Assembly (NCBI GenBank): GCA_007376485.1
Contig: VMGJ01000003.1
Span: 17,252 to 81,251 of the forward strand
Source of the DNA: Parcubacteria group bacterium Licking1014_17
GTDB lineage: Bacteria > Patescibacteriota > Minisyncoccia > 2-02-FULL-40-12 > IGHO2-01-FULL-4-A
Length of the DNA: 64,000 bases
Direction: 5' to 3'
Shown here: positions 38,726 through 57,675 of the stretch, one piece after another
Numbering within the stretch: position 1 is the stretch's first letter
Layout: each line of letters starts with the position of its first letter
Translations under genes and position numbers: made by a program
The notes under the pieces: generated by a model
The model's database searches: none
Told to the model about the DNA's origin: nothing
What the model saw: only the letters and a program-made list of their open reading frames with translations

Positions 38726-38770
38726 AAAATTTGATTCCGTCGTCTCGCCTTATTTTTTTCGCCTCCATAA

Positions 38771-40498: not shown

Positions 40499-40502
40499 CC
40501 GA

Positions 40503-41660
40503 TTAATTTAGTATTTTTCTGTAATTATCGGCAATCAAATCCCAGTTATATTTGTTCCGCACTAATTTCTTTGCCCGCGAGGCAAGATTTTGCCTTAGAT
40601 TATCGTCGGCTAAAATCGCGTCTATGGCTAGAGCAATTGATTCCGGATTGTTTGGTTTACAGGCAATTCCGGTTTCGCCGTCCTTAAGAAAATTTGGAAT
40701 GCCGCCGACAAGAGTCCCGACTATAGGCACCTCCATAGCCATTGCCTCCAAAAAAGCCGTCCCGAGGCCTTCCGAAACGGATGGGCGCGCGAATATGTCA
40801 GACATCGCCAGATATTTGGGCAGGTCGTCGTGTTTTACGGAACCCGCGAATATAACTTTATTTTTTAAACCTAAATTGGACGCAAGTTTTTCCGCTACTC
40901 CCCGCAAATGGCCATTGCCGACAAGCAATAATTTCCAGTTTTTTGTTTTCAACAGCGAACAAGCCACGATAAGGTCTAAAACGCCGTTTTTGGGCACCAA
41001 ACGCGACACGCTTATGATTACTTTTTCGTCCTTATTAATTCCCAGCAGGTTTTTCTCCGATTCCGCCTCGCCGGCATATTTTTCTTTACCGAAAAGTTCA
41101 ATATCAACGCCGTTGGGAATGACAAAGATTTTATTTTCGGAAATGCCCTGCTTGGCAATATATGATTTAAGATAATTACTAATAACCACAATTTTGTCCG
41201 CTTTTTTTATGATTAATTTACGGAAAATACTTTTTAATATCCCCTGTTTATCCAGGCTTTCGCCTTCCTGGACATTCAGGACAAACTGTTTCCCGTAGAA
41301 AATTTTATAAAGCCAGGCGGCGCCACCTCCCTGGGACGCCTGGAGCGCAAAAATATAATTATAGGGACCTTTTTTTTGGGTAAGCCGGGCGGATTTTATG
41401 AAAGCCGAGATTGGGAAAAATATTTTAGGCACGAAAAAGTTCGTAAGAGAAAACCTACCGCCGCAGCGAAAAACATCCGTGTTGCCGATGCGCTCTTCGC
41501 TTTTCAAATCCCGGTCATACGATCCTCCCCGCGAATTAAATCTTGAGGTGATAAGGTCAAAATGAAAATCCGGCAATCTGTCGGTAATATTTTTTACCGC
41601 CAGCTCGGCGCCGCCGATAGAAGGAAGATAAGATGTCGTAAAAATTAAAACTTTTTTCAT
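40503..41660 (-). CDS. GT4-family glycosyltransferase
   Basis: SEGLGTAFLEAMAMEVPIVGTLVGGIPNFL motif. Confidence 0.7.
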   Translation of the reverse strand: MKKVLIFTTSYLPSIGGAELAVKNITDRLPDFHFDLITSRFNSRGGSYDRDLKSEERIGNTDVFRCGGRFSLTNFFVPKIFFPISAFIKSARLTQKKGPYNYIFALQASQGGGAAWLYKIFYGKQFVLNVQEGESLDKQGILKSIFRKLIIKKADKIVVISNYLKSYIAKQGISENKIFVIPNGVDIELFGKEKYAGEAESEKNLLGINKDEKVIISVSRLVPKNGVLDLIVACSLLKTKNWKLLLVGNGHLRGVAEKLASNLGLKNKVIFAGSVKHDDLPKYLAMSDIFARPSVSEGLGTAFLEAMAMEVPIVGTLVGGIPNFLKDGETGIACKPNNPESIALAIDAILADDNLRQNLASRAKKLVRNKYNWDLIADNYRKILN

Positions 41661-41662
41661 TG

Positions 41663-43411
41663 TTATTCGGCAAATTCTATACTAATATCTTTCGCGTCGG
41701 TCAGGGAAAAATAATAATTGGCGGTTTTCTTGTCGCCAAGACCCGAGTACGCCTTGCCTAAAATCAGCAAAACATCCCCATCCCTGGATTCTGCCTTAAT
41801 TTCACTGCCAATAAAAGAGATGGCTTCTTTCGGTTTGCCGGAATTAATTAGGCTTAAAGCGTATACTTTTGTCCGGTATAAACTCGGTTCTTTATGATAT
41901 AAATCCCCGAACAATTCCGCCGCTTCGCCGTATTTTTTCTGGAACATCAGGAGGCGGGCAAGATTCCATTCCGCCGTCTGGTATTCGGGATTAATCTCAA
42001 ACGCTTTTTTGTAATAAGATATGGCGTCGCCGATTCTGCCCTCATGGGCGGCTAACGCGCCTACGACGCTCAAAGTCGGCAAATGCTCGGGGTAAATTGA
42101 ATACGCCTGAATGGCTAAAGGATTGGCTTTATCCCACCGGTTGATTTTCATGTATTCCCGGGAAAGAAGCGCCATCGCATGAACGCTATTTGGCGACTGC
42201 GCCACGGCGCTTTCAAATAAGGTCACATTATTTAACCAATCATTATTGCGATTCACAGTAATAATGACATAAATAATACAAATAAGCCCCAAAAAAGGAT
42301 ATGAAAGATATCTGACCCATTTCTTCCGGGTAATATAAACAATGGTGGTGGCGGTTATAACGGCGATGCCTGCCGATGAAGCATAAAACATCCTTTCGGC
42401 CATTATTGTGCCGATAGGCAAAACGAAATTGGAAACTATAAAATAAAAAGCCAATAAAAGCGCCGCCCCCAGGCCCAGGGCGGTTTTTTTCGTCCGGTCC
42501 CCAAAAATCAGCAAAAGTAATCCGGCAAAAATAAGTAGGCCTAATATAACATAGAGATTAAAAAAATTATTAAGAACCGGAATTTGGTTGTAAGAATAAT
42601 CCGACGAGAGGTGGAATGGAATAAATGTTTTATAGATATAAAGAAGCATTATTTTTAAAGCCGTGAACACGCGCGCCGGCAAAGCCAAAGACGCCAGCGG
42701 GTTATAAACAAAAGCAACCTTAACCGAAAAAATATATTCCTTGAGCGCTATGTACCGCAGAATAAAATAAAGCGCTACCGCTCCCCAATACGGCGCTAAT
42801 TTGTAAAAAACTTCTTTTATGTTTTTGCCCTGACGGATCCACAGCCACCAGACGGCCACCGCTATCAGCCCCAGGCCGCTTTCTTTGGAAAGCATTCCCA
42901 ACAGAAAAAATACCGCCCCCGTCCAATATTTTTCTTTATCTAAAAACAACAGGCTTAAAAGCGAGAAAAATAAGATAAGAACATCCGCCCTACCGGAAAT
43001 GTATGTGACCCCCTCGGTATGTATGGGCATGACAGCGAATAAAATAGAAGATAGATAAGCCAGGCGTTCATCTGAAAACAATTTCCGAGCCAGGACGAAA
43101 ATCAAAAAAATATTCAAGCCGTGAATAATTATATTAACTACGTGGAAGCCGGCCGGATTTGAACCAAATAAATAATTAAAAGCGTAGGAGACCAGGGTGA
43201 AGGGCCTGTAAAGACCAGATTCCGGCTGGTTATAAAATGGTTTGAAAATAAGAGTGGGAATTGAACCTAAACTTCTAATATCCTGGTTTTTTTCTATGGA
43301 TGAATAATCATCAAGAACAAAACCGCCCCCTATGCCATTGCCAAATAAAATAAAGGCCAAAACTATGGCTCCCGTGCATATCAGTAATAGTTTTTTTCTG
43401 TCGGATTTCAT
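41663..43411 (-). CDS. PMT/ArnT-like GT-C membrane glycosyltransferase with C-terminal TPR repeats
   Basis: The N-terminal membrane domain carries a DDYSSIEKN...GLYRPFT loop. The C-terminal ~180 aa show TPR-like repeats (AIQAYSIYPEH..., YKKAFEINPEY..., LARLLMFQKKYGEAAELF). Confidence 0.6.
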   Translation of the reverse strand: MKSDRKKLLLICTGAIVLAFILFGNGIGGGFVLDDYSSIEKNQDIRSLGSIPTLIFKPFYNQPESGLYRPFTLVSYAFNYLFGSNPAGFHVVNIIIHGLNIFLIFVLARKLFSDERLAYLSSILFAVMPIHTEGVTYISGRADVLILFFSLLSLLFLDKEKYWTGAVFFLLGMLSKESGLGLIAVAVWWLWIRQGKNIKEVFYKLAPYWGAVALYFILRYIALKEYIFSVKVAFVYNPLASLALPARVFTALKIMLLYIYKTFIPFHLSSDYSYNQIPVLNNFFNLYVILGLLIFAGLLLLIFGDRTKKTALGLGAALLLAFYFIVSNFVLPIGTIMAERMFYASSAGIAVITATTIVYITRKKWVRYLSYPFLGLICIIYVIITVNRNNDWLNNVTLFESAVAQSPNSVHAMALLSREYMKINRWDKANPLAIQAYSIYPEHLPTLSVVGALAAHEGRIGDAISYYKKAFEINPEYQTAEWNLARLLMFQKKYGEAAELFGDLYHKEPSLYRTKVYALSLINSGKPKEAISFIGSEIKAESRDGDVLLILGKAYSGLGDKKTANYYFSLTDAKDISIEFAE

Positions 43412-43461
43412 TTTGGAATTGGCGCTTCCAAACCAAGGAATTATGTGATATTTTACATTAT

Positions 43462-44676
43462 ATGGGCTTAATTAGCAAATTGCCGGAACAAAATGTTGGC
43501 ATGAAAAAAAGGGTGCTTTTTATTGTAACGGTATCCGAGTGGGGCGGTGCCCAACAGTTTTTATTCAAGCTTATTCGGGGTTTATCCGGAAAAAATTTGG
43601 AATTTTTGGTGGCTGTGGGGAACGACGGGGACGGAACTTTTTACAATAAACTTGCCGGCATGATTAATGTCGTGACTTTAAAACAGCTAAAAAGAAATAT
43701 CAGTCCTGTCAGCGACATAAGGGCTCTTTGGGAAATCAAAAATCTGATTGAGCACTGGGAGCCGGACACGGTTTTTCTGAACAGCTCCATAGCGGGCTTC
43801 ATCGGTTCGGCGGCAGTCAGATTTTTGGTAAAGTCCCCCAAGCCCAGAGTTATCTATCGCATCGGCGGATGGGTTTTCAACGACCCCAAGCCAAAATGGG
43901 AACGATGGCTGTATATCTTGCTTGAAAAAATAAGCTCGCGCTGGAAAGACGTAATTGTCGTCAATAATCTGCCTGATTACAGACAAGCCGATAAATACGG
44001 GATTAAACCGCGTGAGAAACTGGAGTTGGTTTATAACGGCATTGATCCCTATACTTTAGACCTTCTCCCAAAAGAAGAAGCCCGTGGATTGATTCTTGAC
44101 CGCATCGCGAAAAAAACGCCCGCGGCTTACAACCCCGCCTATATTGTCGGGACAATAGCCAATTTTTATAAGACCAAGGGTCTTGAATACCTGGTCAGAA
44201 GCGCGAAATTGCTGCTTGATAAAATTAGAGAAAGAGATACCGGACTGAAAATTCTCTATGTAATAATCGGCGACGGCGAAGAGAGGATGAATCTGGAAAA
44301 AACGATAAAGGAGCTGAATCTCAAAGATAATGTCTTTTTATTCGGCAGAGTTGAAAACGCGCACCGTTACCTGCCGGCATTCGATGTTTTTGTTTTGCCG
44401 TCATTAAAAGAGGGTCATCCTTGGGCGCTTATTGAAGCAATGGCGGCGAAAATCCCCGCGGTTGTAACTTCCGTTGGGGCAAATATTGATATTATCGAAA
44501 ACGGGAAAAACGGGCTGTTAGTGCCCCCGGGAAATTCCGAAGCTCTCGCGGAAGCCGTTGAATTAATGCTCTTGAACGAACATTTAAGATTAAAAGTGGC
44601 TATCGGAGCCCATCAGACGATAGTCCTGAATTTCGACCTCAATAAAATGGTCTCAAGAATCGAATCCTTATTGTAG
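43462..44676 (+). CDS. GT4-family glycosyltransferase (probable true start at the MKKRVLFIV methionine, 43501)
   Basis: EGHPWALIEAMAAKIPAVVTSVGANIDIIENGKNGLLVP motif. Only plus-strand gene in this part of the locus; it diverges from the upstream operon. Confidence 0.7.
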   Translation: MGLISKLPEQNVGMKKRVLFIVTVSEWGGAQQFLFKLIRGLSGKNLEFLVAVGNDGDGTFYNKLAGMINVVTLKQLKRNISPVSDIRALWEIKNLIEHWEPDTVFLNSSIAGFIGSAAVRFLVKSPKPRVIYRIGGWVFNDPKPKWERWLYILLEKISSRWKDVIVVNNLPDYRQADKYGIKPREKLELVYNGIDPYTLDLLPKEEARGLILDRIAKKTPAAYNPAYIVGTIANFYKTKGLEYLVRSAKLLLDKIRERDTGLKILYVIIGDGEERMNLEKTIKELNLKDNVFLFGRVENAHRYLPAFDVFVLPSLKEGHPWALIEAMAAKIPAVVTSVGANIDIIENGKNGLLVPPGNSEALAEAVELMLLNEHLRLKVAIGAHQTIVLNFDLNKMVSRIESLL

Positions 44677-44677
44677 T

Positions 44678-45256
44678 CTAATAAGCAATACTAATTATCG
44701 TTTCGCCGGAGCATTGGGATTCGAATATTTTCAAGTCGCCGTTCACAAACTTGCCGTAAGTAACACGCGCGGTAAGAGAATATTGTTTATAGGGCGCAAT
44801 ATCCTTTTTCATGGTGGCGGTAATATCGTGCTCGCCATCGGGTATTTTCAGGCCTGAAAATATATTCGGACCGACATCAAAGTCCGCTCTGGGTTTAATG
44901 TCCCAGTAAACAAGCCTGCTCGGATGGTCTATATTTTTATAACTTATTTTCGCGTTCGTGCTCTGATAAGTATTTGGGGATATGTACGTAATAATGCCCG
45001 AAATCGAGCAGATTGCCGCGGGAAGATTGCCAATCATTGTATTGACGGGAACGGTCGGCATTGGTCTCGGGGATGTTGGGGCTGGCGAAGGACTCTTTGA
45101 GTCCGGCTTGGGCGGCGTACTGAATGAGATTATTGCTGATGGGTTCGGCGATTCCTCGGCAGGATTTTGTTCTTCTTTTGAAAAATAGGCTGCAATAATC
45201 AAGAAAACTCCCACTATCAAAACTAATAACCAAAATATTTTAATTCTGTTGCTCAT
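44678..45256 (-). CDS. signal-anchored secreted protein with Pro/Ser-rich linker, unknown function
   Basis: N-terminal hydrophobic helix. The PNPSAIISFSTPPKPDSKSPSPAPTSPRPMPT low-complexity linker is followed by a ~120-aa globular region. Confidence 0.5.
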   Translation of the reverse strand: MSNRIKIFWLLVLIVGVFLIIAAYFSKEEQNPAEESPNPSAIISFSTPPKPDSKSPSPAPTSPRPMPTVPVNTMIGNLPAAICSISGIITYISPNTYQSTNAKISYKNIDHPSRLVYWDIKPRADFDVGPNIFSGLKIPDGEHDITATMKKDIAPYKQYSLTARVTYGKFVNGDLKIFESQCSGETIISIAY

Positions 45257-45305
45257 AGCTTATTTAATACACAAAAAACATCAAAATACAAGCCGCCCCC
45301 CAACC

Positions 45306-45332
45306 AAAAACCGCCTTTCGGCGGTTTTTGGT
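45306..45332. terminator. bidirectional rho-independent terminator (copy 1)
   Basis: Perfect hairpin AAAACCGCC-tttc-GGCGGTTTT flanked by A- and T-tracts, immediately 3' of the 705-aa gene. Confidence 0.7.
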
Positions 45333-45368
45333 TTGCATAACCCCGTGTTGAGGTTATGGCGCCTATGC

Positions 45369-47486
45369 TTACAGCTTCGAGAATGTTGGACCGTTCATCG
45401 GGAGGGTTCTTAATATGCCGGCCGTTGAGCCCGTAGCTTGGTTACCAGACGTCCAATTGATTAAACCATTTTGATTATCTCTCAATGCCAACTGAAAGAA
45501 ATCTCTCCTATGGGGAAACCCCGAAAAATTAATTTCAATCCGATACGTTCTGGAACTTCCGGCGCTGATTTCAATATCGTTGCCCGGCGGCAAAAAATCC
45601 AGGATTAGCGGCGCATAAACATTGGGATTGTCCCCGGCTCCTCTTATCGTATCAACGCTTTTGATAGTGCCGTCACTCGCATCATAGGTGGTAGCGACCA
45701 AATCAGTCGCCGCAGAATCACCGGAAGCCACAGCGTCAAAAACAATCGAGCCCGCCGGCAATGAACTGTTATCAAGCCATAATACCGAGTCTGGCGCGCC
45801 CATTGCCGTTATCGTAAACTTAATAACATCATTGGTGTTAACGGGTTCATAGCCGCTGGTCGGTACCATATGAAATTCCGGATAAACCTGGTAAACATAT
45901 ATGTCATTGCTTTTTACGTCATTTATACCCGGAGAGGCGCCATTAAGAACCTGGCCTGAAATTTCGCCAACCGCCCGAAAACTGTCGGTAGTTGAACCTT
46001 TATAATTATCGGAGAAATCAATGGAAAAAAACTTATTATTGGTCGCACCCTGCGATTTGGTTTTGAGATCGGCTTTAACCAATAATTCAGCGGAGGAGTC
46101 CTTGGGTATGTAAGGTCTTGAGTCGCCGGTAAAGGCAAAAATAGCGACACCGCTCGAGTCCGGCATGGCATTTTGGGTCAACTCCTGGCCACTTTTGTTT
46201 TTATAAACAATAGTCGTGTTCGCTACATTGCCGGCAAAATTGATCTTCTCATTAGCGTCCAGCGGCGTGAGTGTTACGCGCTCGATAAAAAAAGCGTCGT
46301 TGCCGGAGGTCACTCTGAATCTGCTGAATTCCGTACCTGTCTGTCCCCAGAACTTAGCCCCGCGCGTTGGCGTCATGGGTGATTGTGAGATATTAAGGAT
46401 TCCAGAACTACCCACAGTTACAATTATCTTTGGGTTAGTAATCCCATTGGGCGGTGCGTCATATGATGCGTGTACTACTCCCCCGACATCATCCGTACCC
46501 GTAATATCCGTGGTAGATTCGATATCAAAGGATAGTGAATCGCTGGAACCAGAAGTGGCGTTTGATGATATATCCCCTTTTACTAATAACCTTTTCGTCG
46601 TACCAGCAGAGATAGTCCAATTGCACGCGCTAAACTGGATAGTGCTGACTGACAAGCTAAGGTTATTAGCCGTTATTATGCAATCCAAAGGCTTACTGGT
46701 ATCGCCTTCAAAAAGCCGAATGGCTGTTATCCTATCGCCTATTGATAAGCCATCATCATTTTGGGGCAGGCTTAGGGATTTCGCGAAAATCATTCCATCA
46801 TCCGAAATATAGCCGGTAAGTTTTATGTCGGTAACATTTACACTGGTACTATCCACGGCGGTAAAGTTTACGCCAAGCATTTCCACGTTGGTGGCCCCTT
46901 TTGCGTAGATTCCGGACTTGGGGTTATCCGCGGGAGTTAGAATTAGCGGACCGCTTAAAACGGGATTTTTCCTAACGACCTCCACTTTATTTACATAGAG
47001 AATCGGCTGGGAAAGTACCGAAGAGCCGGCCAGCAGGCGTATGGTCATTTTATGCCTGCCATCGGCAAAACTTACGCTCTGGCTGTATTTTTTCCACGTA
47101 GCGTTATTATCCACGGTGAAGGTCCGGTAGTTTCTCCCGTCAACTGACAATGCCATTTTAGGCCATTGCTTCAGGGTAGTCCCGGTAGGCTCACCCTCTG
47201 CATAAATATCAACGCTGTAACTCGCCGTGCTTTCAAAATCAAAAGTTTGGGACATCCAACTACTGCCTTTCATCATCACCGTCCCCGAGGCGGTTGATTG
47301 ACATTTAACATACCCGCTTTTTGATTCAATAAATTTGCAACCGCTGACTATGGTTGATGCGTCTTCGGCTGGTATTTGAATCAGCGCCAATTGTCTGCCG
47401 GGTATGTCGGTAAATCCGATAAACAAAAGAAACGCGGCAATAATAACCGCATAACCCGTAATTATAAGAAAATTTTTCTTAAACAT
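45369..47486 (-). CDS. large secreted/cell-surface protein (paralog of 47664..51317), beta-rich Thr/Ser/Gly/Asn-rich
   Basis: N-terminal signal anchor. Long collinear blocks are shared with the 1217-aa neighbour: AKFWGQTGTEFSRFR, SRPYIPKDSSAELLVKADLKTKS, FTITAMG. Both share the C-terminal motif LPMNGPTFSKL. Confidence 0.6.
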   Translation of the reverse strand: MFKKNFLIITGYAVIIAAFLLFIGFTDIPGRQLALIQIPAEDASTIVSGCKFIESKSGYVKCQSTASGTVMMKGSSWMSQTFDFESTASYSVDIYAEGEPTGTTLKQWPKMALSVDGRNYRTFTVDNNATWKKYSQSVSFADGRHKMTIRLLAGSSVLSQPILYVNKVEVVRKNPVLSGPLILTPADNPKSGIYAKGATNVEMLGVNFTAVDSTSVNVTDIKLTGYISDDGMIFAKSLSLPQNDDGLSIGDRITAIRLFEGDTSKPLDCIITANNLSLSVSTIQFSACNWTISAGTTKRLLVKGDISSNATSGSSDSLSFDIESTTDITGTDDVGGVVHASYDAPPNGITNPKIIVTVGSSGILNISQSPMTPTRGAKFWGQTGTEFSRFRVTSGNDAFFIERVTLTPLDANEKINFAGNVANTTIVYKNKSGQELTQNAMPDSSGVAIFAFTGDSRPYIPKDSSAELLVKADLKTKSQGATNNKFFSIDFSDNYKGSTTDSFRAVGEISGQVLNGASPGINDVKSNDIYVYQVYPEFHMVPTSGYEPVNTNDVIKFTITAMGAPDSVLWLDNSSLPAGSIVFDAVASGDSAATDLVATTYDASDGTIKSVDTIRGAGDNPNVYAPLILDFLPPGNDIEISAGSSRTYRIEINFSGFPHRRDFFQLALRDNQNGLINWTSGNQATGSTAGILRTLPMNGPTFSKL

Positions 47487-47600
47487 AAGTGTAACTTTTG
47501 GCCGGCAAGGCGGTTTTTATGCTACGTATCGCCGGCAAATTAGTTGTATGCCACTAATTATATATTAAAAAATAAAAAACTTATTCACAGATGGCAAACC

Positions 47601-47627
47601 AAAAACCGCCTTTCGGCGGTTTTTGGT
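47601..47627. terminator. bidirectional rho-independent terminator (copy 2)
   Basis: Same hairpin, 3' of the 1217-aa gene. Part of a ~110-bp near-identical duplicated block (45304-45414 / 47599-47699). Confidence 0.7.
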
Positions 47628-47663
47628 TTGCATAACCCCGTGTTGAGGTTATGGCGCCTATGC

Positions 47664-50600
47664 TTATAGCTTCGAGAGCGTTGGTCCGTTCATCGGGAGC
47701 AAGCGCAGCGTGCTGGTCGTTGAAGCAGTGTCGGCATCCGCAAGCGAACCGGCTGAATCAGCAACCCAGTTAATCAAGCCGTTTACGTCATCGCGCAAGA
47801 TCAATTGGAAGTAGTCTGATTTGTCATTGAAGCCGGAGAATCCAACTTCAATGCGGAATGTCTTGGATGTGCCACCCGAGATTTCAACGTCTTTGCCGGG
47901 CGACCCGAAGTCCAAAGTCAGCGACGCATAGTAAGACGGACTGTCGCCAACCGCGGAAATCGTGTCCGAACTGATAACCGAACCGTCGGCCATGTCATAG
48001 GTCGTAGCCGTCAGGTTTGTCGTTGTCGTATCACCCGAAGCGACGGCTTCAAACTTGATTGAGCCGGAACCAGTAGCAAGGTTGTCGAAGTACAGCTTGG
48101 AATCGGAAAGACCCATGGCTGTAATCGTGAACTTCAGCACGTCCTTGGTACCCAAAGGCTCGCCGGCGGAGATAGCCACCTGGTCAAGCTTTGGAAACAC
48201 ACGGTAGACGTACATATTGTTGCCTTGCTTGGCGGCAGCCGCGGCATCAATGATACCGGTTGACGCACCATCAATAACTTGGCTTGAGCCGGCGCCAATC
48301 GCTCTGAAACCGTTGGCGGTTGAACCGTTGTAGGTCTTAGAGAAGTCGATTGAGAAGGCAACGTTGTTGGTCGCGCCTGACGACTTGGTCTTCAGGTCCG
48401 CCTTCACAATAAGGTCGGCGCTCGAGTCCTTAGGAATATAAGGCCTGCTGGTGCCGGCAAACGCGAAGGAGACCGAACCAGCCGAGTTAGGCGAAGCGCT
48501 CTGGGTCAGAAGGTTACCGAGAGCATCGGTGTAAGTCACCGAAATGTTATTCACATTATTAACCTCGTTGGTTGATTCACCCGAAGCGCTGGCAATCAAC
48601 GTGAAGCGTTCAATGTAGAAAGCCTCATTCGTAGAAGTCAGCCTGAATCTGCTGAATTCGGTGCCGGTCTGGCCCCAATACTTAGCTTCTTGAGACGGGG
48701 TGGATGGCGATAGCGAAATCGTCATGGAGCCGGTATTGTTGACCCTTATTTTCACAGTCGGCGATGCGGCGGCGCCGTTCGGAAGAGTCGCGTCCGCGTT
48801 CACCGTCTGGCTGGAATCGTCAAGGGCTGTTATATCGGTCGTAGCGGCGACATTAAACGCTATGCCGTCATACGTACTGGACGGAGTGTTCGTCGAGAGG
48901 TCGCCCTTAACCAAGAGTTTCTTGGTCGCGCCGGCAGGAATAGACCAGTTGCAGTTGTTGAACTGAATGGTGCTTGTTGACGAACTTAGATTGTTTGCAA
49001 CCATGACGCAGGATAACGCTGTCCCTGCATCGCCGTCGTACAGCTTAACTCCCGACACTAGATTGCCGACTGACATTGTGGCATCGGCGTCGGATAGGCC
49101 CAGCGACTTGGCGAAGGTCGAGTTGTCATCCGAAACATAACCGGTAAGAGTTATATCGGTGACTTTCAGACTTGAACCAAGAGCCGCCTTGAAGGTCAAG
49201 CCAAGCAAATCAACATTGGCAGTTCCCTTAACATAGGTCGAGCTCTTTGGGTCGCCGGCAAGACCGAGCGTCAATGACGATGTTGAAACCGTCATAGCAT
49301 TGCCGCTTATATCACCGGACGGACTAAAGTCAGCCAAAACGACGGCAGTGTTGGTGCCGCTGTACTTGGCAACAGTCAAGTCGCCGGATGAAGTAGCAAG
49401 AGTGCCGTAGCCGTAGAGAATCGCTTTGATAATACTGTTGTTGGCTATGGCAAGAGTTCCGCTGTTAGATGTCTTGAGGTCGGCGGTTACCTGAAGGGTC
49501 TTGGTCTCTCCGGTAAGCATTTCCATGGTATCAGTGAAATCCTTATAGAGACCGTTCTTGGAACCCGGGCAGGCCGCTGTTATAGCGATAAAGGCAGAAC
49601 CGTCGGAAGGACCGACAAAAACCGTACCCGTGCTCTTGTCTTTAACCTTGATGTCTTCAAGGTCGGTAACGTTTTGCGCCGCGCTGTAGTCATCATAAGT
49701 GCCATCGCCGTTGATGTCCGTGCAGATAACGATTCTGTGCTTTTTTAGCTCAATGGCCTTAGCGGCATTGATTGTGTATTCTAACAGCACATTATCCTGC
49801 GAATTGTCGGCAATATTGGAAGCCGAAGGACCGGAAAAACTCAAAGTGATTACTCCGCCTTGCAGTGTTATGGCATCAGCATCGGATGCGGTCTCAAGCC
49901 CGTTATTGGCCGAAGATAAAGCCATACCAAAACCATATTGATCGCCAACAACATAAACATCAGAATTCAGCTCAAAGTAGAGCTCAACTGTCTCGGCTTT
50001 CTTGCCGCCCAAGTTTCCGTAAACCTGGAATATTTTGTTGTTGCCTTTCTCAATCTTCACGCCCGAACCGAGGTCAAACACCACATAGCCGTTTGACATA
50101 TAACCATCGGCTACTTTCGAACCGCCGGTTTCAAGCGCTAGGCCGGTGATGTCGGCATCCTTTACGGTGCCGTTGTTAATTAATCTCAATCCCCTTACCC
50201 AGCCGGCTTCCGTGGCAGTCGTAATCTTGAATTCGGAAAGTTTGACATGCTGGGCTCCGACATTCGGATTGGAAAGCGAGCCCGATTTGGCAACAGTAAG
50301 AGTGCCACCGTCGCTTCCCGACATTGTGAAGTTAGCGCCAACAATCGGGAAATATCCGCCAAGCGTGCCCGAGGACAAAATTACGTCACCGGACGAAACA
50401 ATATCGAAGTGATTAACATTTCCCCCGGTCGCACTGAGGTCGGCTTTAACTGTAAGGTCTTTTGTGCCATTAACCGAGATGCCCAAGCTGACAAAAGTAA
50501 CCTTACCTGTTGACGAAGACAAACTTTTACCTGAAGTCAGACGGTTGGAACCATCATAGATGTAAACGTTGTCAATATCATCTACGGAACCAGCACCATT

Positions 50601-51317
50601 GCGAGTGATTGTAATGCTGGAAACAGTGCCGGTACCGGTCAATCTGATCTTGGTAAAAGCGATGCCTTGGGCGTTCTTGGTAACGGTTTGACCAGCCGGA
50701 GTGTCGGGAGATAAAGCAACATTAACATTCCCCGCTACCGGCGGTATTGTTGAACCCGGTGTTCTTGTGTAAACGGGAATCTGCGACAAAGAGGTATAAG
50801 GAGTTGAGCTTTTCGGGTACCAACTTTCCTCCCTTGTATTTATGCAGAATACTTTCTTGAAGAAATCGGGGTCTTGCGCCACCGCGTCGCCGCCAGTCAT
50901 CTGGACGGGGTGAAATACGCCGGTATCTTCGCCGGTTACTTCAACCGCCCAAACTTGCTGGGCATTGGTTTCACAATTTCGATACAACCCAGAGGTCGGG
51001 AAAGCATCTCTGACCGTGGGGGTAACATTCTTAACATTGGCAAAACCGCCCAAGTGGGCGTACATGCCAAATATGGCAGGATTCAAAAACAATCTCTTGA
51101 ATCCCAAGTCGTTGACAATATAGACGTCCGGATCGCTGGAGCCGGCAGCACTGATAGTGTTGCCCTCTGTTAATCCGTAGTCGCTCGGTTTGGCTGCGCC
51201 AGCATTTCTGGCTGTCACAAAGATCAAACCGACGGCGAGCACAACGACAAACGCCGCCGCTATAAACGGTAATGATTTTCTTAAATTACTCATGTGTATT
51301 ATTATTTCCATTCTCAT
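47664..51317 (-). CDS. very large secreted/cell-surface protein (1217 aa; probable true start at the MSNLRKSLPFIAAAFVV methionine, 51293)
   Basis: Signal-peptide-like N-terminus. Repetitive beta-rich T/S/G/N composition. C-terminal third is paralogous to the 705-aa protein and ends LPMNGPTLSKL. Confidence 0.6.
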   Translation of the reverse strand: MRMEIIIHMSNLRKSLPFIAAAFVVVLAVGLIFVTARNAGAAKPSDYGLTEGNTISAAGSSDPDVYIVNDLGFKRLFLNPAIFGMYAHLGGFANVKNVTPTVRDAFPTSGLYRNCETNAQQVWAVEVTGEDTGVFHPVQMTGGDAVAQDPDFFKKVFCINTREESWYPKSSTPYTSLSQIPVYTRTPGSTIPPVAGNVNVALSPDTPAGQTVTKNAQGIAFTKIRLTGTGTVSSITITRNGAGSVDDIDNVYIYDGSNRLTSGKSLSSSTGKVTFVSLGISVNGTKDLTVKADLSATGGNVNHFDIVSSGDVILSSGTLGGYFPIVGANFTMSGSDGGTLTVAKSGSLSNPNVGAQHVKLSEFKITTATEAGWVRGLRLINNGTVKDADITGLALETGGSKVADGYMSNGYVVFDLGSGVKIEKGNNKIFQVYGNLGGKKAETVELYFELNSDVYVVGDQYGFGMALSSANNGLETASDADAITLQGGVITLSFSGPSASNIADNSQDNVLLEYTINAAKAIELKKHRIVICTDINGDGTYDDYSAAQNVTDLEDIKVKDKSTGTVFVGPSDGSAFIAITAACPGSKNGLYKDFTDTMEMLTGETKTLQVTADLKTSNSGTLAIANNSIIKAILYGYGTLATSSGDLTVAKYSGTNTAVVLADFSPSGDISGNAMTVSTSSLTLGLAGDPKSSTYVKGTANVDLLGLTFKAALGSSLKVTDITLTGYVSDDNSTFAKSLGLSDADATMSVGNLVSGVKLYDGDAGTALSCVMVANNLSSSTSTIQFNNCNWSIPAGATKKLLVKGDLSTNTPSSTYDGIAFNVAATTDITALDDSSQTVNADATLPNGAAASPTVKIRVNNTGSMTISLSPSTPSQEAKYWGQTGTEFSRFRLTSTNEAFYIERFTLIASASGESTNEVNNVNNISVTYTDALGNLLTQSASPNSAGSVSFAFAGTSRPYIPKDSSADLIVKADLKTKSSGATNNVAFSIDFSKTYNGSTANGFRAIGAGSSQVIDGASTGIIDAAAAAKQGNNMYVYRVFPKLDQVAISAGEPLGTKDVLKFTITAMGLSDSKLYFDNLATGSGSIKFEAVASGDTTTTNLTATTYDMADGSVISSDTISAVGDSPSYYASLTLDFGSPGKDVEISGGTSKTFRIEVGFSGFNDKSDYFQLILRDDVNGLINWVADSAGSLADADTASTTSTLRLLPMNGPTLSKL

Positions 51318-51959
51318 CGCCAGCAGGATTTATAATCCTGATGCCGACAAGAGATTAATCCCTAACGCCTTTACGGGTTCTCTCTGTTATGTTCAGTTGC
51401 AAACCCGGAGTCTGGCCGCGTTATCGCTGGAAGCTGTTTTAATAGTTTTTATATTGCAGCTGCCAGTCTTGCCCCGACCGCTTAAGACTCTTATTTGGGA
51501 ACCTTATAAATTAACTCCTGGCATTCCAAACAACATTCATCAGATTTTAAGCCATTTTCTAGCCAGCCTCGAATATCGGTTTTTAGCCCATATCCGGGGC
51601 AGACTAGTAAAAAACTCACCTCTTTTAGGCTACTAAAAACAATCCAATAATCGCGTAAATTATAGATTTTTTCATCTTTTTACCCGTTTGCTCTTGCAGA
51701 TAATATCAAAACTCTTCCGCGCAGTCAACCAAAAAGACACGACTGTCCGCGGCTAATATTATCATTTACCTAACTACAAACAGTGACGTGTAAGGGTTTC
51801 AAACCTTACACCACACATACTATATTGGCCCCGAAACTGCTATTTATTATAACAACTAACAAATAGCTTTAAAATACTTTCAAGCCCAAAATTGTGGATA
51901 ATTGCAAATAATCACATAATCGAGGCACTGCTAATGACGTCGGGGTACCCGTAAAGATA

Positions 51960-52096
51960 GCGACATAAATGACAAAATTACTATGTCATAGTGACAAAAA
52001 CATTTATGTCACGATATATGACACAGTGACACAATTAGATTGCGACATAAATGACAAATTGACGTGTCACTATGACATAATTGTCATTTATGTCGC
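51960..52096. promoter_or_regulatory. dense array of TGTCA/GCGACA-type repeats (3 copies of a 16-17-bp unit plus three TGTCA-Nx-TGACA palindromes)
   Basis: GCGACATAAATGACAA at 51960-51975 and 52042-52057, and its reverse complement at 52081-52096. TGTCAtagTGACA at 51985-51997. TGTCAcgatataTGACA at 52006-52022. TGTCActaTGACA at 52065-52077. Confidence 0.55.
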
Positions 52097-52608
52097 TATA
52101 GGTTGTCTATCTTCCATATTTTGTCACCTTTGACAAATATGATATTGACGCTTATATCGGAAGAAACTTTATATATGTAAGTGGCGCTCTTGTCGTCCTC
52201 CTTTTTTAAGAGCCACCCGGCTCTCGCCTTTTCAAATTCTGCTATAAGTTTATCCGTTATCCCCTTGTCTTCGCTGGCTATAAACGTTTTTTCCCAGCTT
52301 TCCTGCTTGGATGTCACAAAATAACGGCTCGCAAGTTTAAAATCCTTGCTCTTCAAAGCATCCATAAATAGGTCATAAGTTTCCTCCGGCGTAGCGCCAC
52401 CGATGATATCACCGCTGGCAATAATCGGTTCAGAACCATTTTCTCCCGCGGTTTTATCGCCCTGTATTTTTTTCAATATTCCGGAGAAGTTCAACATACC
52501 CAAAATTGCCGATAGAGCAACGACTCCAAAAATAATGGTGATTATCCAATTTTTACGGAAAAACCCATTGCTCCTTCTGGAGTCGCCAGATATTGCCGGG
52601 TTGTTCAT
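52096..52608 (-). CDS. small membrane-anchored protein (N-terminal TM + ~130-aa extracytoplasmic domain), unknown function
   Basis: 170-aa ORF. Hydrophobic helix WIITIIFGVVALSAILGML. Shares an operon with the upstream regulator gene. Confidence 0.5.
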   Translation of the reverse strand: MNNPAISGDSRRSNGFFRKNWIITIIFGVVALSAILGMLNFSGILKKIQGDKTAGENGSEPIIASGDIIGGATPEETYDLFMDALKSKDFKLASRYFVTSKQESWEKTFIASEDKGITDKLIAEFEKARAGWLLKKEDDKSATYIYKVSSDISVNIIFVKGDKIWKIDNL

Positions 52609-55749: not shown

Positions 55750-57675
55750 TTGAAGTCAATAGTAAACAAAAAATCAGCATCTTTGCTGAAAATTATCTTA
55801 AAAAATCCTTATGAAAATTTTTCTTTTCTGCTTCTACAAAATATGGTTCGAGCCGATGTTTTTAACGGGTTCTTTTGCGGTTTTGATTCGTGCGGCTCCG
55901 CCGCCTTTCCGGATTTTCGCGGGGGGACTTCCTCGCCGCCGCAGGCGGCGAAAGCGGTTCGGACTAATTCAAGTATCCTGCACCACGTTGGAAAAGTCAA
56001 TGCCTCGCCCCGCCTTCGGCGGGTCTCGGCGACCAAATCGTACGGATTTTTCGGGGTAAAAAGAAATTCCCGATTCCGGATTGAAGCTCAACTTGTTGAG
56101 CTCAAAGAATTTGCCGCCAAAGAAAAACTTGAAATTGTCGCTTCCTTTCAGGAAGCCAAAACCGCAAAAGAACCCGGGCGAATTAAATTCGCAGAAATGT
56201 TGTCATTGATTGAGAGAGGGAAAGCAGACGGGATAATTTCATGGCATCCGGATCGTCTCGCAAGAAATTCTGTGGATGGCGGAAAGATTATTCACTTTGT
56301 TGATCGCGGCTTGATTCGTTCCCTCAAATTTCCCTGCTTCTGGTTTGAACCGACACCACAAGGATTATTCATGCTGAACATTGCTTTCGGACAAAGCAAG
56401 TATTTTGTAGACAATTTGCGAGAGAATGTAAAAAGAGGTTTGCGGCAGAAAATCAGAAATGGAGTATGGCCAAGTTGGGCTCCAATTGGCTACACTAACA
56501 ACCCCAAAACGCGCGGTATTGATATTGATAGCGACAAAGCCCCTAAGGTAAAGAAATTGTTTGAAATGTATGCCACCGGAGAATACTCTCTCAACATCCT
56601 CGCAAATTGGTGTGAGAAAAAGAAACTGCTCACTAACGCCGGAAACAAAATATCATTAAGCAATGTTCAGCATATTCTCCAAAACCCTTTCTACATTGGG
56701 TTGATGAGATACAAAGGGGAAATTTTTGAGGGAACACACGAACCGTTAATCTCAAAGAAACTTTTTGATAAATGTCAGGAAGTTATGGTAAAGCGTGGGA
56801 AAGTGAGGCCAGACAGGAAACACTATTTTGCTTTTCTTGGCCTGATGAAATGCGCCTCGTGTGGTTGTTCAATTACGGCTCAATACGCAAAAGGAAATGG
56901 TGGTATTTACACTTACTATCGGTGTACAAAAAAGCGAGGCAAGTGCCAAGAAAAGTATCTTGATGAAAAACAGCTTTTAACACAAATTAAAAACTTCCTG
57001 CAAAAAGTTTCTTTGTCGAGCCAAGACACCGAGAAAGTTTTGGCGGCATTAGGCACAGAAGAAACACAAGCGAAACAACAAGCACAAAGTGAGGCGGTAA
57101 ATCTAAAAGAGCAGTTAGCTCAAATTGAAACAAAGCTCCAGAAATTGCTGGACGTATATCTCGATGATGCACTTACTCAAAAAGAATACGCCACCAAAAA
57201 AGATGTCCTCATTTCCCAAAAGGTCGAGTTAAACGAAAAAATCACCGACTTTGAGCAAAAAGGGGTGTCTTGGCTCGAACCGGCTCGTGAGTTTGTAAAA
57301 TCCTTGAATCAAGCCGCTAATTTACTTGAATCAGAAAATCTTTCCGAAATGACAACATTTCTGAAAAACATCGGCTCGAACCATATTTTACGGAATCGGG
57401 AATTTCTTTTTACCCCGAAAAATCCGTACGATTTGGTCGCCGAGACCCGCCGAAGGCGGGGCGAGGCATTGACTTTTCCAACGTGGTGGTCGTGTTCTGC
57501 CATTGAACCACACCCGCGTTGCCAAGGGGGTTTCGGCGAAACTTCGCCGAAACCCCCTTGGCTGAATTTTTATTTTTTATTTATCCAGTCGGTAACGGAC
57601 TGCCAGAATTTACCCCATGCGTCCGGTTGCCCGGCGCTTTTTTCAATCACGCTCGTTTCTTTATTTTTTGAGTAA
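55750..57675 (+). CDS. large serine recombinase (resolvase/invertase-type catalytic domain + recombinase domain + zinc ribbon + coiled coil). True start and stop are uncertain because the ORF runs through repeats S, R1', R2 and R2'
   Basis: WHPDRLARN (the catalytic DRLxR of serine recombinases), GTHEPLISKKLF, the zinc ribbon CASCGCSITAQY...YYRCTKKRGKC and the coiled-coil C-terminus all match large serine recombinases (A118/Bxb1/TnpX-like). The first in-frame ATG/GTG/TTG before the catalytic region is at 55843 (inside S) or 55750. There is no canonical start just upstream of the putative catalytic Ser (KRNS at aa 104-107 or RVS at aa 91-93). Confidence 0.75.
   Translation: MKSIVNKKSASLLKIILKNPYENFSFLLLQNMVRADVFNGFFCGFDSCGSAAFPDFRGGTSSPPQAAKAVRTNSSILHHVGKVNASPRLRRVSATKSYGFFGVKRNSRFRIEAQLVELKEFAAKEKLEIVASFQEAKTAKEPGRIKFAEMLSLIERGKADGIISWHPDRLARNSVDGGKIIHFVDRGLIRSLKFPCFWFEPTPQGLFMLNIAFGQSKYFVDNLRENVKRGLRQKIRNGVWPSWAPIGYTNNPKTRGIDIDSDKAPKVKKLFEMYATGEYSLNILANWCEKKKLLTNAGNKISLSNVQHILQNPFYIGLMRYKGEIFEGTHEPLISKKLFDKCQEVMVKRGKVRPDRKHYFAFLGLMKCASCGCSITAQYAKGNGGIYTYYRCTKKRGKCQEKYLDEKQLLTQIKNFLQKVSLSSQDTEKVLAALGTEETQAKQQAQSEAVNLKEQLAQIETKLQKLLDVYLDDALTQKEYATKKDVLISQKVELNEKITDFEQKGVSWLEPAREFVKSLNQAANLLESENLSEMTTFLKNIGSNHILRNREFLFTPKNPYDLVAETRRRRGEALTFPTWWSCSAIEPHPRCQGGFGETSPKPPWLNFYFLFIQSVTDCQNLPHASGCPALFSITLVSLFFE
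55838..55863. repeat. 26-bp repeat S (AAAATATGGTTCGAGCCGATGTTTTT); inverted copy at 57364-57389
   Basis: Exact reverse-complement match. The left copy lies 27 bp outside R1'. The right copy abuts R2'. Confidence 0.75.
55891..55982. repeat. inverted repeat R1' (partner of 54810-54901), abutting R2
   Basis: See R1. The R1/R1' pair brackets the nucleotidyltransferase gene. Confidence 0.8.
55982..56079. repeat. inverted repeat R2, 98 bp; perfect inverted partner at 57391-57488
   Basis: The reverse complement of 57391-57488 is identical to 55982-56079 over the full 98 bp. The R2/R2' pair brackets the serine-recombinase core, and both copies lie inside the recombinase reading frame. Confidence 0.85.
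57364..57389. repeat. repeat S' (inverted copy of 55838-55863)
   Basis: Exact match in reverse complement. Confidence 0.75.
57391..57488. repeat. inverted repeat R2' (perfect partner of 55982-56079)
   Basis: See R2. Confidence 0.85.
57521..57583 (+). terminator. strong rho-independent terminator 3' of the recombinase gene
   Basis: 20-bp perfect stem GCCAAGGGGGTTTCGGCGAA-ac-TTCGCCGAAACCCCCTTGGC followed by TGAATTTTTATTTTTTATTT. Confidence 0.8.

What the first reader, a model, noticed from the sequence alone, without database searches (positions are those of the whole stretch)
45304..51317. Two paralogous giant surface proteins share a conserved extreme C-terminus (LPMNGPT[F/L]SKL-stop) and a duplicated 3' block including the terminator
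The 705-aa and 1217-aa proteins are collinear over their last ~350 residues. The final ~18 codons plus ~55 bp of 3' UTR including the terminator hairpin are ~95% identical at the DNA level (45304-45414 vs 47599-47699). Purifying selection or gene conversion is thus maintaining the C-terminus and its transcript end. LPxNGPT superficially resembles a sortase LPxTG sorting signal, but it sits at the very C-terminus with no following hydrophobic segment or charged tail. It is not a canonical sortase, PEP-CTERM or PGF-CTERM signal. A conserved C-terminal tag shared by abundant surface proteins could be a novel secretion, anchoring or processing signal.
Basis: seen in the sequence. Interest (0 to 1): 0.55.

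Follow-up and report, generated by a model that had tools for sequence, protein, structure and literature searches.

The report
Surface-protein paralogs sharing a converted 3' end
Two neighbouring genes of an uncultivated groundwater bacterium encode related cell-surface proteins whose shared C-terminal "tag" is most likely the last structural hairpin of a conserved end domain, and whose identical 3' untranslated stretch is best explained by recent copying between the genes, so it is probably not a new sorting signal.

Summary
Genes A (705 aa) and B (1217 aa) of Parcubacteria bacterium Licking1014_17 are tandem paralogs. They are collinear over about 536 aa at 53% identity, not about 350 aa. 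A 103-nt block is 96% identical: the last 11 codons have 4 mismatches, and the 70 nt from the stop codon through the terminator are 100% identical.

The sorting-signal reading is not supported. LPMNGPT[F/L]SKL ends a roughly 185-aa all-beta C-terminal domain. That domain has 101 representative clusters among 1.84 billion proteins and almost always ends at the protein's last residue. The motif is no more conserved than the domain's other core segments and fades gradually in distant members. No hydrophobic segment or basic tail follows it, no sorting-signal model matches it, and no sortase motif lies nearby. Other family members carry PG_binding_1 or SLH domains at the N-terminus, so anchoring is probably N-terminal. 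Only this genome has a second copy.

Synonymous sites between A and B are saturated, and the closest ortholog shares only the terminator. The identical 3' UTR is therefore best explained by recent gene conversion.

In passing: related genomes carry a covarying CCUUGC-loop hairpin at this gene's 3' end, and a small membrane-protein gene is conserved downstream.

The parts
47664..51317 (-). Gene B: giant secreted surface protein (1217-aa ORF). It has an N-terminal Sec-type signal peptide, a conserved N-terminal domain of about 150 aa, several all-beta domains, and a C-terminal domain of about 185 aa. The real start is probably M9 (MSNLRKS..., 51293).
   Evidence: It is the ortholog of roughly 1200-aa proteins in 29 GTDB loci. 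The full-length AF2 model is all-beta but low confidence.
45369..47486 (-). Gene A: shorter tandem paralog (705 aa). It has an N-terminal hydrophobic anchor and about 175 aa of its own (weak, sub-threshold CBM60-like hit). The remaining roughly 530 aa are collinear with the C-terminal half of B.
   Evidence: A second copy of the C-terminal domain was found only in this window among 33 loci.
47667..48260 (-). C-terminal beta-sandwich domain of B (aa 1020-1217), ending in RLLPMNGPTLSKL.
   Evidence: Profile A2. 101 family clusters, with the domain almost always ending at the last residue.
45372..45929 (-). C-terminal beta-sandwich domain of A (aa 520-705), ending in RTLPMNGPTFSKL.
   Evidence: AF2 model is all-beta, pLDDT 69.5, pTM 0.72, with the last strand at residues 183-185 of the domain. 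Conservation profile.
45372..45404 (-). Last 11 codons of A (LPMNGPTFSKL), the coding part of the 103-nt repeat.
   Evidence: 4 mismatches against B, 3 of them synonymous.
47667..47699 (-). Last 11 codons of B (LPMNGPTLSKL), the coding part of the 103-nt repeat.
45302..45371 (-). 3' block, copy A: TAA stop, hairpin 1 (45336-45358), and a 14-bp A/T-flanked intrinsic terminator with a GAAA loop (45302-45333).
   Evidence: 100% identical to the B copy; fold -36 kcal/mol, z -5.5.
47597..47666 (-). 3' block, copy B: TAA stop, hairpin 1 (47631-47653), and the terminator (47597-47628). The TGCC that follows it matches the ortholog in L033, so B probably holds the ancestral copy.
44678..45256 (-). Small membrane protein gene (192 aa): TM helix, Pro/Ser-rich linker, and a roughly 110-aa domain with two conserved Cys. 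It is a conserved downstream neighbour of the giant gene.
   Evidence: jackhmmer found homologs downstream on the same strand in 29 related loci. Conserved residues lack a His, so it is not sortase-like. No Pfam or NCBIfam match.

Best explanation
A and B are tandem paralogs of a surface-protein family found in this search mostly in Candidatus Yanofskybacteria-type Parcubacteria genomes. The proteins are secreted through an N-terminal signal peptide or anchor, are probably held at the wall by their N-terminal module, and consist of a string of all-beta domains.

LPMNGPT[F/L]SKL is most likely the closing beta-hairpin of the family's C-terminal domain of about 185 aa: a strand, a Pro-x-Asn-Gly turn, then the last strand. 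It is conserved because the domain needs it, not because an enzyme reads it.

Gene A arose in this lineage by duplication of the 3' half of B together with its 3' UTR. The coding sequences then diverged until synonymous sites were saturated. The 70 nt after the stop codon (stem-loop plus strong intrinsic terminator) were recently homogenised by short-tract gene conversion, probably from B to A. The conserved last codons may have served as the upstream homology anchor.

Status of each step:
- Shown: paralogy, the family-wide terminal position of the domain, saturated dS, and the identical UTR.
- Inferred: the hairpin fold of the tail, N-terminal anchoring of B itself, and the direction of conversion.
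For: Motif and domain:
- A181-705 aligns with B682-1217 at 53% identity.
- The C-terminal domain profile finds 101 clusters among 1.84 billion representatives, almost all ending at the protein's last residue.
- The tails grade from LPMNGPxF[SV]K[LQ] through GLPLxGPxLVKP to FRGDIYGGxLVNPS.
- L, P and G of the motif are 3 of 20 invariant columns spread over the domain.
- The tail block holds 2.4 bits per position, against 2.3-2.75 for other core blocks.
- AF2 of the domain is all-beta with a terminal strand. Asn-Gly is the classic tight-turn pair (established knowledge).
- Internal domains end in similar stretches, such as YFPIVGANFTMSG and IVPNTDxxGNNMTI (sequences).

Anchoring:
- N-terminal modules in homologs are PG_binding_1 (39.5 bits) and three SLH repeats (99.4 bits) (also P0008).

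Duplication:
- There is one copy per locus in 31 loci and two only here.

Gene conversion:
- pS is 0.825 over 530 codons, and only 34% of identical-residue codons are the same codon. Against that background the UTR is 70/70 identical.
- The closest B ortholog (72% aa identity) has an unrelated roughly 35-40 nt after its stop codon. It has the same terminator stem and the same TGCC after it.
- The last 11 codons differ at 4 (A-B), 6 (B-L033) and 5 (A-L033) positions, counted by eye. Protein-level constraint therefore explains the coding part.
Against: - The structural support is modest. The tail has pLDDT of about 61-63 in the domain model, the C-terminal domain region is mostly below 50 in the full-length model, and I could not inspect contacts.
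- Foldseek against PDB gave no match at E <= 0.001, and profile searches of PDB sequences found no relative.
- All 4 mismatches of the 103-nt block lie in the 33 coding nt. The chance of that under uniform placement is about 0.01 by my own calculation. One uniform conversion event is therefore too simple, and the UTR may be under selection of its own.
- The terminator core AAACCGCC-N4-GGCGGTTT recurs only at this gene in 7 of the 33 fetched loci, which argues for some constraint on the 3' end.
- Only 64 kb of the genome could be searched for other carriers of the motif or for a processing enzyme.
Confidence: 0.72

Rival explanations
1. The C-terminal motif is a sorting or processing signal. 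An unknown enzyme would recognise LPxxG at the extreme C-terminus and cleave, attach or export the protein.
For: The motif is strictly C-terminal and L, P and G are invariant among close family members. It superficially resembles LPXTG. A small membrane protein of unknown function is conserved just downstream.
Against: - No hydrophobic segment or basic tail follows the motif.
- Position 4 is N, S, Y, F or E, not T.
- No NCBIfam sorting-signal model matches, even at E <= 10.
- The motif is never seen detached from the domain and occurs on one gene per locus.
- No other ORF in the window carries it, and no plausible TLxTC sortase ORF was found.
- The downstream small protein has no conserved His, only two Cys typical of a disulfide.
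- Wall-binding modules sit at the N-terminus.
Confidence: 0.06
2. The terminal hairpin is also an interaction surface. It could mediate lattice or fibre assembly by strand addition, or dock onto the conserved small membrane protein. In that case its conservation would reflect a binding function as well as folding.
For: The domain is always terminal, hence exposed. The partner gene is conserved downstream in 29 related loci. Edge strands at termini are commonly used for strand complementation (general knowledge).
Against: No direct evidence. The tail is not more conserved than the buried core segments. No co-variation or complex prediction could be run.
Confidence: 0.12
3. The identical 70-nt 3' UTR is maintained by purifying selection on a functional RNA rather than by recent gene conversion. 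Candidates are a stabiliser, a protein-binding site or a 3'-UTR-derived small RNA.
For: - There are zero mismatches in 70 non-coding nt against 4 in the adjacent 33 coding nt.
- A stop-hairpin-terminator layout recurs in nearly all orthologous loci.
- A CCUUGC-loop hairpin covaries in 8 of them.
- The terminator core is conserved at this gene only.
Against: - The roughly 35 nt holding hairpin 1 are unrelated in the closest ortholog, which is less diverged from B than A is. Sequence-level selection therefore cannot explain 35/35 identity.
- The window's hairpin 1 is not recognised by the covariance model of the conserved hairpin.
- No Rfam family matches beyond terminator-like noise.
Confidence: 0.08
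4. The tandem arrangement or the repeat is an artefact of metagenome assembly. Two loci or strains would have been joined through a shared repeat of 70-103 nt.
For: The source is a metagenome-assembled genome, and a repeat of about 100 nt is within the range that confuses short-read assemblers (general knowledge).
Against: - Assemblers do not create repeats. Both genes must really end in this block.
- Flanks are coherent. B's downstream context matches the ortholog in L033.
- A is followed by the small gene that follows the giant gene in other genomes.
Confidence: 0.02

Closest known systems
Cell-surface and S-layer-type proteins with an N-terminal wall-binding module followed by Ig-like beta domains (SLH- or PG_binding_1-anchored proteins of monoderm bacteria)
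   Same: Sec signal peptide, a long chain of all-beta domains, and Ser/Thr/Gly/Ala-rich composition. Family members literally carry three SLH repeats or PG_binding_1 at the N-terminus. The genes sit next to glycosyltransferase and PMT_2 genes.
   Different: The window's own N-terminal domain and the C-terminal domain match no Pfam or NCBIfam model and no PDB sequence. Lattice formation is unknown.
Sortase LPXTG cell-wall sorting signal
   Same: An L-P-x-x-G pentapeptide near the C-terminus of a surface protein.
   Different: The fourth residue is not Thr. Only 6 residues follow the Gly, with no hydrophobic helix and no basic tail. The motif is part of a folded domain, is restricted to one family, and has no sortase nearby.
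T9SS C-terminal domain (CTD) of Bacteroidota
   Same: A conserved beta-sandwich domain that is always at the extreme C-terminus.
   Different: The T9SS CTD is shared by many unrelated cargo proteins per genome and needs an outer membrane and PorU/PorV. Here the domain sits on one family, one or two genes per locus. The organism is a CPR bacterium, and no NCBIfam model matched at all.
Short-tract gene conversion between tandem paralogs of bacterial surface proteins
   Same: A sharply bounded tract of about 70-100 nt of near-identity sits inside paralogs whose synonymous sites are otherwise saturated.
   Different: The tract covers the untranslated 3' end and terminator rather than an antigenic coding segment. 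No silent cassette donors are involved.
Diversity-generating retroelement VR/TR pair
   Same: A repeat of about 100 nt lies at the 3' end of a surface-protein gene in a CPR genome.
   Different: The mismatches (T/A, A/G, T/C, G/A) are not adenine-specific. Most of the repeat is non-coding. I did not screen for a reverse transcriptase; the only recombination gene among the flanking ORFs I scanned is a large serine recombinase.

Membership tests
Sortase LPXTG sorting signal | LPXTG pentapeptide (Thr at position 4, Gly at position 5) | tested here: not met
   The window has LPMNG. Across the family position 4 is N, S, Y, F, E, L or I.
Sortase LPXTG sorting signal | A hydrophobic membrane-spanning segment and a positively charged tail after the motif | tested here: not met
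   Only PT[F/L]SKL follows the Gly. The same holds in almost all of the 101 family tails.
Sortase LPXTG sorting signal | A sortase encoded in the genome, with several different substrate proteins | tested here: inconclusive
   No plausible TLxTC ORF and no other motif-bearing ORF in the 64-kb window or in the fetched loci. The Pfam lists of neighbours in three loci show no sortase. The rest of the genome could not be searched.
PEP-CTERM, PGF-CTERM, GlyGly-CTERM and related exosortase, archaeosortase or rhombosortase signals | A signature motif followed by a TM helix and an Arg/Lys cluster, recognised by NCBIfam/TIGRFAM models | tested here: not met
   No NCBIfam hit for the full proteins or for the isolated 44- and 50-aa tails at E <= 10. 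No TM helix follows the motif.
T9SS C-terminal sorting domain | A CTD shared by many cargo proteins and matched by the Por_Secre_tail model | tested here: not met
   No NCBIfam or Pfam hit. The domain is confined to one architecture family, one copy per locus.
N-terminally wall-anchored surface or S-layer-type protein | A Sec signal peptide and a wall-binding module at the N-terminus | tested here: inconclusive
   Signal-peptide-like N-termini are visible in the sequences. Homologs carry PG_binding_1 or three SLH repeats in place of the window's N-domain. The window's own N-domain has no known family (protein 3).
N-terminally wall-anchored surface or S-layer-type protein | Self-assembly into a surface lattice | not testable with these tools
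   This needs microscopy or biochemistry.
Rho-independent (intrinsic) terminator | A G+C-containing stem-loop directly followed by a U-run | tested here: met
   A 14-bp stem with a GAAA loop followed by UUUUUGGUU. The two-hairpin block folds at -36 kcal/mol, z -5.5. The simple scanner did not list it.
Gene conversion tract between paralogs | A sharply bounded segment of near-identity within otherwise saturated paralogs, not explained by conservation in orthologs | tested here: met
   70/70 identical against pS 0.83. The hairpin-1 part is unrelated in the 72%-identical ortholog.
DGR variable/template repeat | Mismatches confined to adenines of one copy, with a reverse transcriptase nearby | tested here: not met
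   The mismatch types are mixed. The reverse-transcriptase half of this feature was not tested; no systematic screen for one was run on the window.

The most novel reading that the evidence does not exclude
The giant protein, its always-terminal C-domain and the co-conserved small membrane protein could form a two-component surface-attachment or assembly system particular to this lineage. In that system the terminal LPxNG hairpin would dock by strand addition. In addition, the gene's structured 3' UTR (the covarying CCUUGC-loop hairpin plus a terminator conserved at this gene) could be a new cis-acting RNA element, or the source of a 3'-UTR-derived small RNA.
Probability: 0.12. Interest if true: 0.6.

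Novelty: new member of a known kind. Interest (0 to 1): 0.3.

Why it matters
CPR/Patescibacteria are thought to live attached to other cells, yet their surface proteins are almost all uncharacterised. This work gives an unannotated family a working description:
- a secreted chain of all-beta domains;
- interchangeable N-terminal wall-binding modules (an unknown domain, PG_binding_1 or SLH);
- a family-specific distal end domain;
- a conserved small membrane-protein neighbour;
- a structured 3' UTR.

It also removes a tempting false lead, an LPXTG look-alike. It shows how a short converted tract at a transcript's end can mimic a "conserved signal". If the terminal domain proves to be the host-contact tip, the lineage-specific second copy, which has a different N-terminal part, would be a natural case of surface diversification.

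Tried and rejected
- Pfam and NCBIfam scans of A, B and their isolated tails found no family and no sorting-signal model.
- Rfam on 44.0-52.5 kb gave only terminator-like noise.
- Profile searches of PDB sequences found nothing.
- The 23-nt core of hairpin 1 is absent from GTDB species representatives and from JGI metagenomes. I could not show further copies, and this genome is evidently not in those sets.
- A's exact protein is not on record in the contig index.
- The internal-repeat test with the C-domain HMM gave only weak partial matches to internal domains, never reaching the last strand.
- The full-length AF2 model was too poor to use.
- MAFFT plus RNAalifold on the 3' hairpins gave no structure. 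A covariance-model route was needed instead.
- I looked for a complement (GCAAGG) of the CCUUGC loop near the downstream gene's start and found none.
- The DGR reading was rejected on the mismatch pattern.
- The -SKL ending, which resembles the eukaryotic PTS1 signal, is not conserved in the family: endings include VKQ, TKQ, VTP and FQR.
Full report
**What is there.**

The window comes from Parcubacteria group bacterium Licking1014_17, according to the names attached to identical proteins. Two same-strand ORFs lie head to tail:
- B: 47664-51317 (-), 1217 aa.
- A: 45369-47486 (-), 705 aa.

BLASTP aligns A181-705 with B682-1217 at 53% identity over 536 aa. The shared part is therefore larger than the ~350 residues reported. 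Both proteins end in LPMNGPT[F/L]SKL.

At the DNA level, the only long direct repeat in the 64 kb is 45302-45404 versus 47597-47699, 103 nt at 96%. The 70 nt from the TAA stop through the terminator are identical, where shuffles expect none. The four mismatches all lie in the last 11 codons. The rest of the coding DNA aligns only in patches of 68-75%.

**The motif belongs to a domain, not to a tag.**

A whole-protein search of 5.8 billion clusters found only 11 relatives, mostly about 1200 aa. Their tails read RLLPINGTIFTKQ, RLLPMNGPIFVKQ, KSLPMNGPIFVTP, KTLPLNGTSFVTTGL and KALPMLGGSLVRQL.

I made a profile of the last ~186 residues and searched it exhaustively against 1.84 billion representatives. 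It found 101 clusters. In nearly all of them the match runs to within one or two residues of the protein's end. The tails grade from LPMNGPxF[SV]K[LQ] through GLPLxGPxLVKP to FRGDIYGGxLVNPS as the rest of the domain diverges.

Several measures show the motif is an ordinary part of the domain:
- L, P and G of the motif are three of twenty invariant columns scattered through the domain.
- In 49 full-domain members the tail block carries 2.4 bits per position. Other core blocks carry 2.3-2.75.
- AF2 of the domain gives an all-beta model (pLDDT 69.5, pTM 0.72) with a final strand on F-S-K.
- Pro-x-Asn-Gly followed by an alternating hydrophobic pattern is what a tight turn plus an edge strand looks like (established knowledge, inference).
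- Internal domains of the same proteins end in similar stretches, such as YFPIVGANFTMSG and IVPNTDxxGNNMTI, just before the next domain starts (sequences).

This structural reading is likely but not proven. Confidence at the tail is only about 61-63, the full-length model is poor, and Foldseek against PDB and profile searches of PDB sequences found no solved relative.

**Tests of the sorting-signal idea.**
- Nothing hydrophobic or basic follows the Gly.
- NCBIfam, which holds the curated -CTERM and LPXTG models, gives no hit for the proteins or for the isolated tails, even at E <= 10.
- No other ORF in the window ends with the motif.
- The only TLxTC strings in the window and in the fetched loci are chance matches.
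- The Pfam lists of neighbours in three orthologous loci show glycosyltransferases and TPR proteins, not sortases.
- In 31 related loci there is exactly one copy of the domain within about 6 kb. Only the window has two.

The anchoring end appears to be the other one. Several orthologs replace the window's N-terminal domain by a coiled coil plus PG_binding_1. A Peribacteria relative replaces it by three SLH repeats (also P0008).

**Why the 3' end is identical.**

Over 530 aligned codons pS is 0.825 (saturated) and pN is 0.30. Identical residues use the same codon only 34% of the time. Seventy identical non-coding bases cannot be a relic of the original duplication.

The closest B ortholog I could find is a Hainich groundwater contig (L033). 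It is 72% identical in protein and also ends LPMNGPTFSKL. Its first ~35-40 nt after the stop codon are unrelated to the window's hairpin 1. Its terminator stem is the same apart from the loop (AAACCAAAAACCGCC-TTCG-GGCGGTTTTTGGTTTGCC), and it shares the TGCC that follows B's copy but not A's.

The hairpin-1 part is therefore not conserved by long-term selection, yet it is identical between A and B. That indicates recent homogenisation, with B as the likely donor.

The last 11 codons differ at 4, 6 and 5 positions in the A-B, B-L033 and A-L033 comparisons, counted. Amino-acid constraint alone explains their similarity.

One observation does not fit a single uniform conversion event. All four mismatches fall in the coding third of the block, which has a chance of about 0.01 by my calculation. 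Either the tract is essentially the UTR, or the UTR is additionally constrained.

**The 3' UTR is more than a terminator in this family.**

Folding the 110 nt after the stop codon in every locus shows a stop-hairpin-terminator layout almost everywhere. Thirteen loci carry a CCUUGC loop in the first hairpin.

A covariance model grown from one sequence to eight gave these results:
- 93.6% of cells are paired.
- 8 of 12 pairs have changes on both sides.
- No shuffle in 500 reached the observed covariation score.
- The slid controls collapsed.

The caveat is that this alignment was fitted to the model.

The window's own hairpin 1 is not recognised by this model. It is at best a divergent counterpart.

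The terminator core AAACCGCC-N4-GGCGGTTT occurs only twice in the window. It occurs exactly once in 7 of the 33 fetched loci, each time just after the giant gene. I found no complement of the loop near the downstream gene, so the hairpin's role is open. It could be stabilisation of an abundant mRNA or a protein-binding site.

**Context.**

The 192-aa ORF after A (TM helix, Pro-rich linker, a domain with two conserved Cys and no conserved His) has homologs downstream on the same strand in 29 related loci. In several loci a TATAAT- or TATATT-like box sits a few bases before its ATG, which suggests its own, possibly leaderless, promoter.

Upstream and downstream lie GT4 glycosyltransferases, a PMT_2 protein, a TPR membrane protein, an HtrA-type protease and a large serine recombinase.

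**Verdict.**

This is an ordinary evolutionary pattern in an uncharacterised protein family. There are two surface-protein paralogs. The shared "tag" is most likely the last hairpin of a conserved terminal domain. The identical transcript end is best explained by recent gene conversion. The novel-signal reading has low probability. The family description, the conserved partner gene and the covarying 3' hairpin are the parts worth keeping.

Noticed in passing
L004, L005, L007, L008, L016, L020, L021, L022, L024, L025, L027, L029 and L031, about 10-60 nt after the stop codon of the giant gene (e.g. L027 2195-2239, L021 9048-9094): A conserved 3'-UTR stem-loop with an invariant CUUGC (mostly CCUUGC) in the loop and an AUCC-type 5' flank. 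In eight sequences the stems differ by compensatory changes: 8 of 12 pairs have double changes and 0 of 500 shuffles reach the covariation score. The eight sequences are not hits of the evalue Rfam scan, which covered only the window. The window's own hairpin 1 is not detected by the model.
   Followed up: partly
window 45302-45333 and 47597-47628; L006 4169-4188, L008 9608-9627, L017 8545-8564, L019 9575-9594, L021 9098-9117, L024 9224-9243, L033 87-106: The terminator core AAACCGCC-N4-GGCGGTTT is found only behind the giant surface-protein gene, once per locus in 7 of 33 loci and twice in the window. These species share only about 45-50% protein identity. That is unusual sequence-level conservation for a terminator.
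   Followed up: partly
window 44678-45256 (-): A 192-aa membrane protein (TM helix, Pro/Ser-rich linker, roughly 110-aa domain with two conserved Cys, W, and a GPN-F motif) has homologs downstream of the giant gene in 29 related loci. It has no Pfam or NCBIfam family. In several loci a -10-like box sits a few nt before its ATG, suggesting a leaderless transcript.
   Followed up: partly
window 51957-52100: A dense array of interlocking palindromes of the type TGTCA(C/T)...(A/G)TGACA, with arms of 15-19 nt up to 100% complementary. It lies directly after the 170-aa ORF and about 640 nt upstream of gene B. It looks like a cluster of operator sites. It gave spurious microRNA-precursor hits in Rfam.
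   Followed up: no
window 51318-52095: A 778-nt stretch with no ORF of 80 aa or more on the minus strand lies upstream of gene B. It has two good promoter-like sites with extended -10 boxes (51873-51846 and 51728-51700), implying a long 5' leader. It also holds a 16-codon mini-ORF (MKKSIIYAIIGLFLVA).
   Followed up: no
L020-L025 and P0008 (N-termini); L032 4981-9942: N-terminal module swapping within the family. The conserved unknown N-domain (PSDYGLTEG...DPDVYIVN...KRLFLNP) is replaced by a coiled coil plus PG_binding_1 in one clade. In a Peribacteria relative it is replaced by three SLH repeats.
   Followed up: yes
window 51242-51317: The public annotation of B (1192 aa, starting MLAVGLIF...) begins inside the hydrophobic core of the signal peptide. 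Orthologs support an earlier start at MSNLRKS... (about 51293).
   Followed up: partly
window 55750-57675 (+): A large serine recombinase (Resolvase + Recombinase + Zn_ribbon_recom) lies about 4.4 kb upstream of gene B. No link to the repeat was found.
   Followed up: no
window 37382-44676; L001 5961-9470; L002 10226-11974: Glycosylation genes (GT4 glycosyltransferases and a PMT_2-type membrane transferase) and roughly 580-aa TPR-containing proteins flank the surface-protein genes. The roughly 580-aa TPR proteins recur next to orthologs. This hints that the giant proteins are glycosylated.
   Followed up: no
P0098, P0017 and P0023 (proteins): Exceptions to the rule that the domain ends the protein. 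One distant member continues into a PEP-CTERM-like tail (PEPSTFVLLGVGALGLVIACWRKRRS). Two members carry a 16-aa amphipathic extension after LPMNGPVFQRQ.
   Followed up: no
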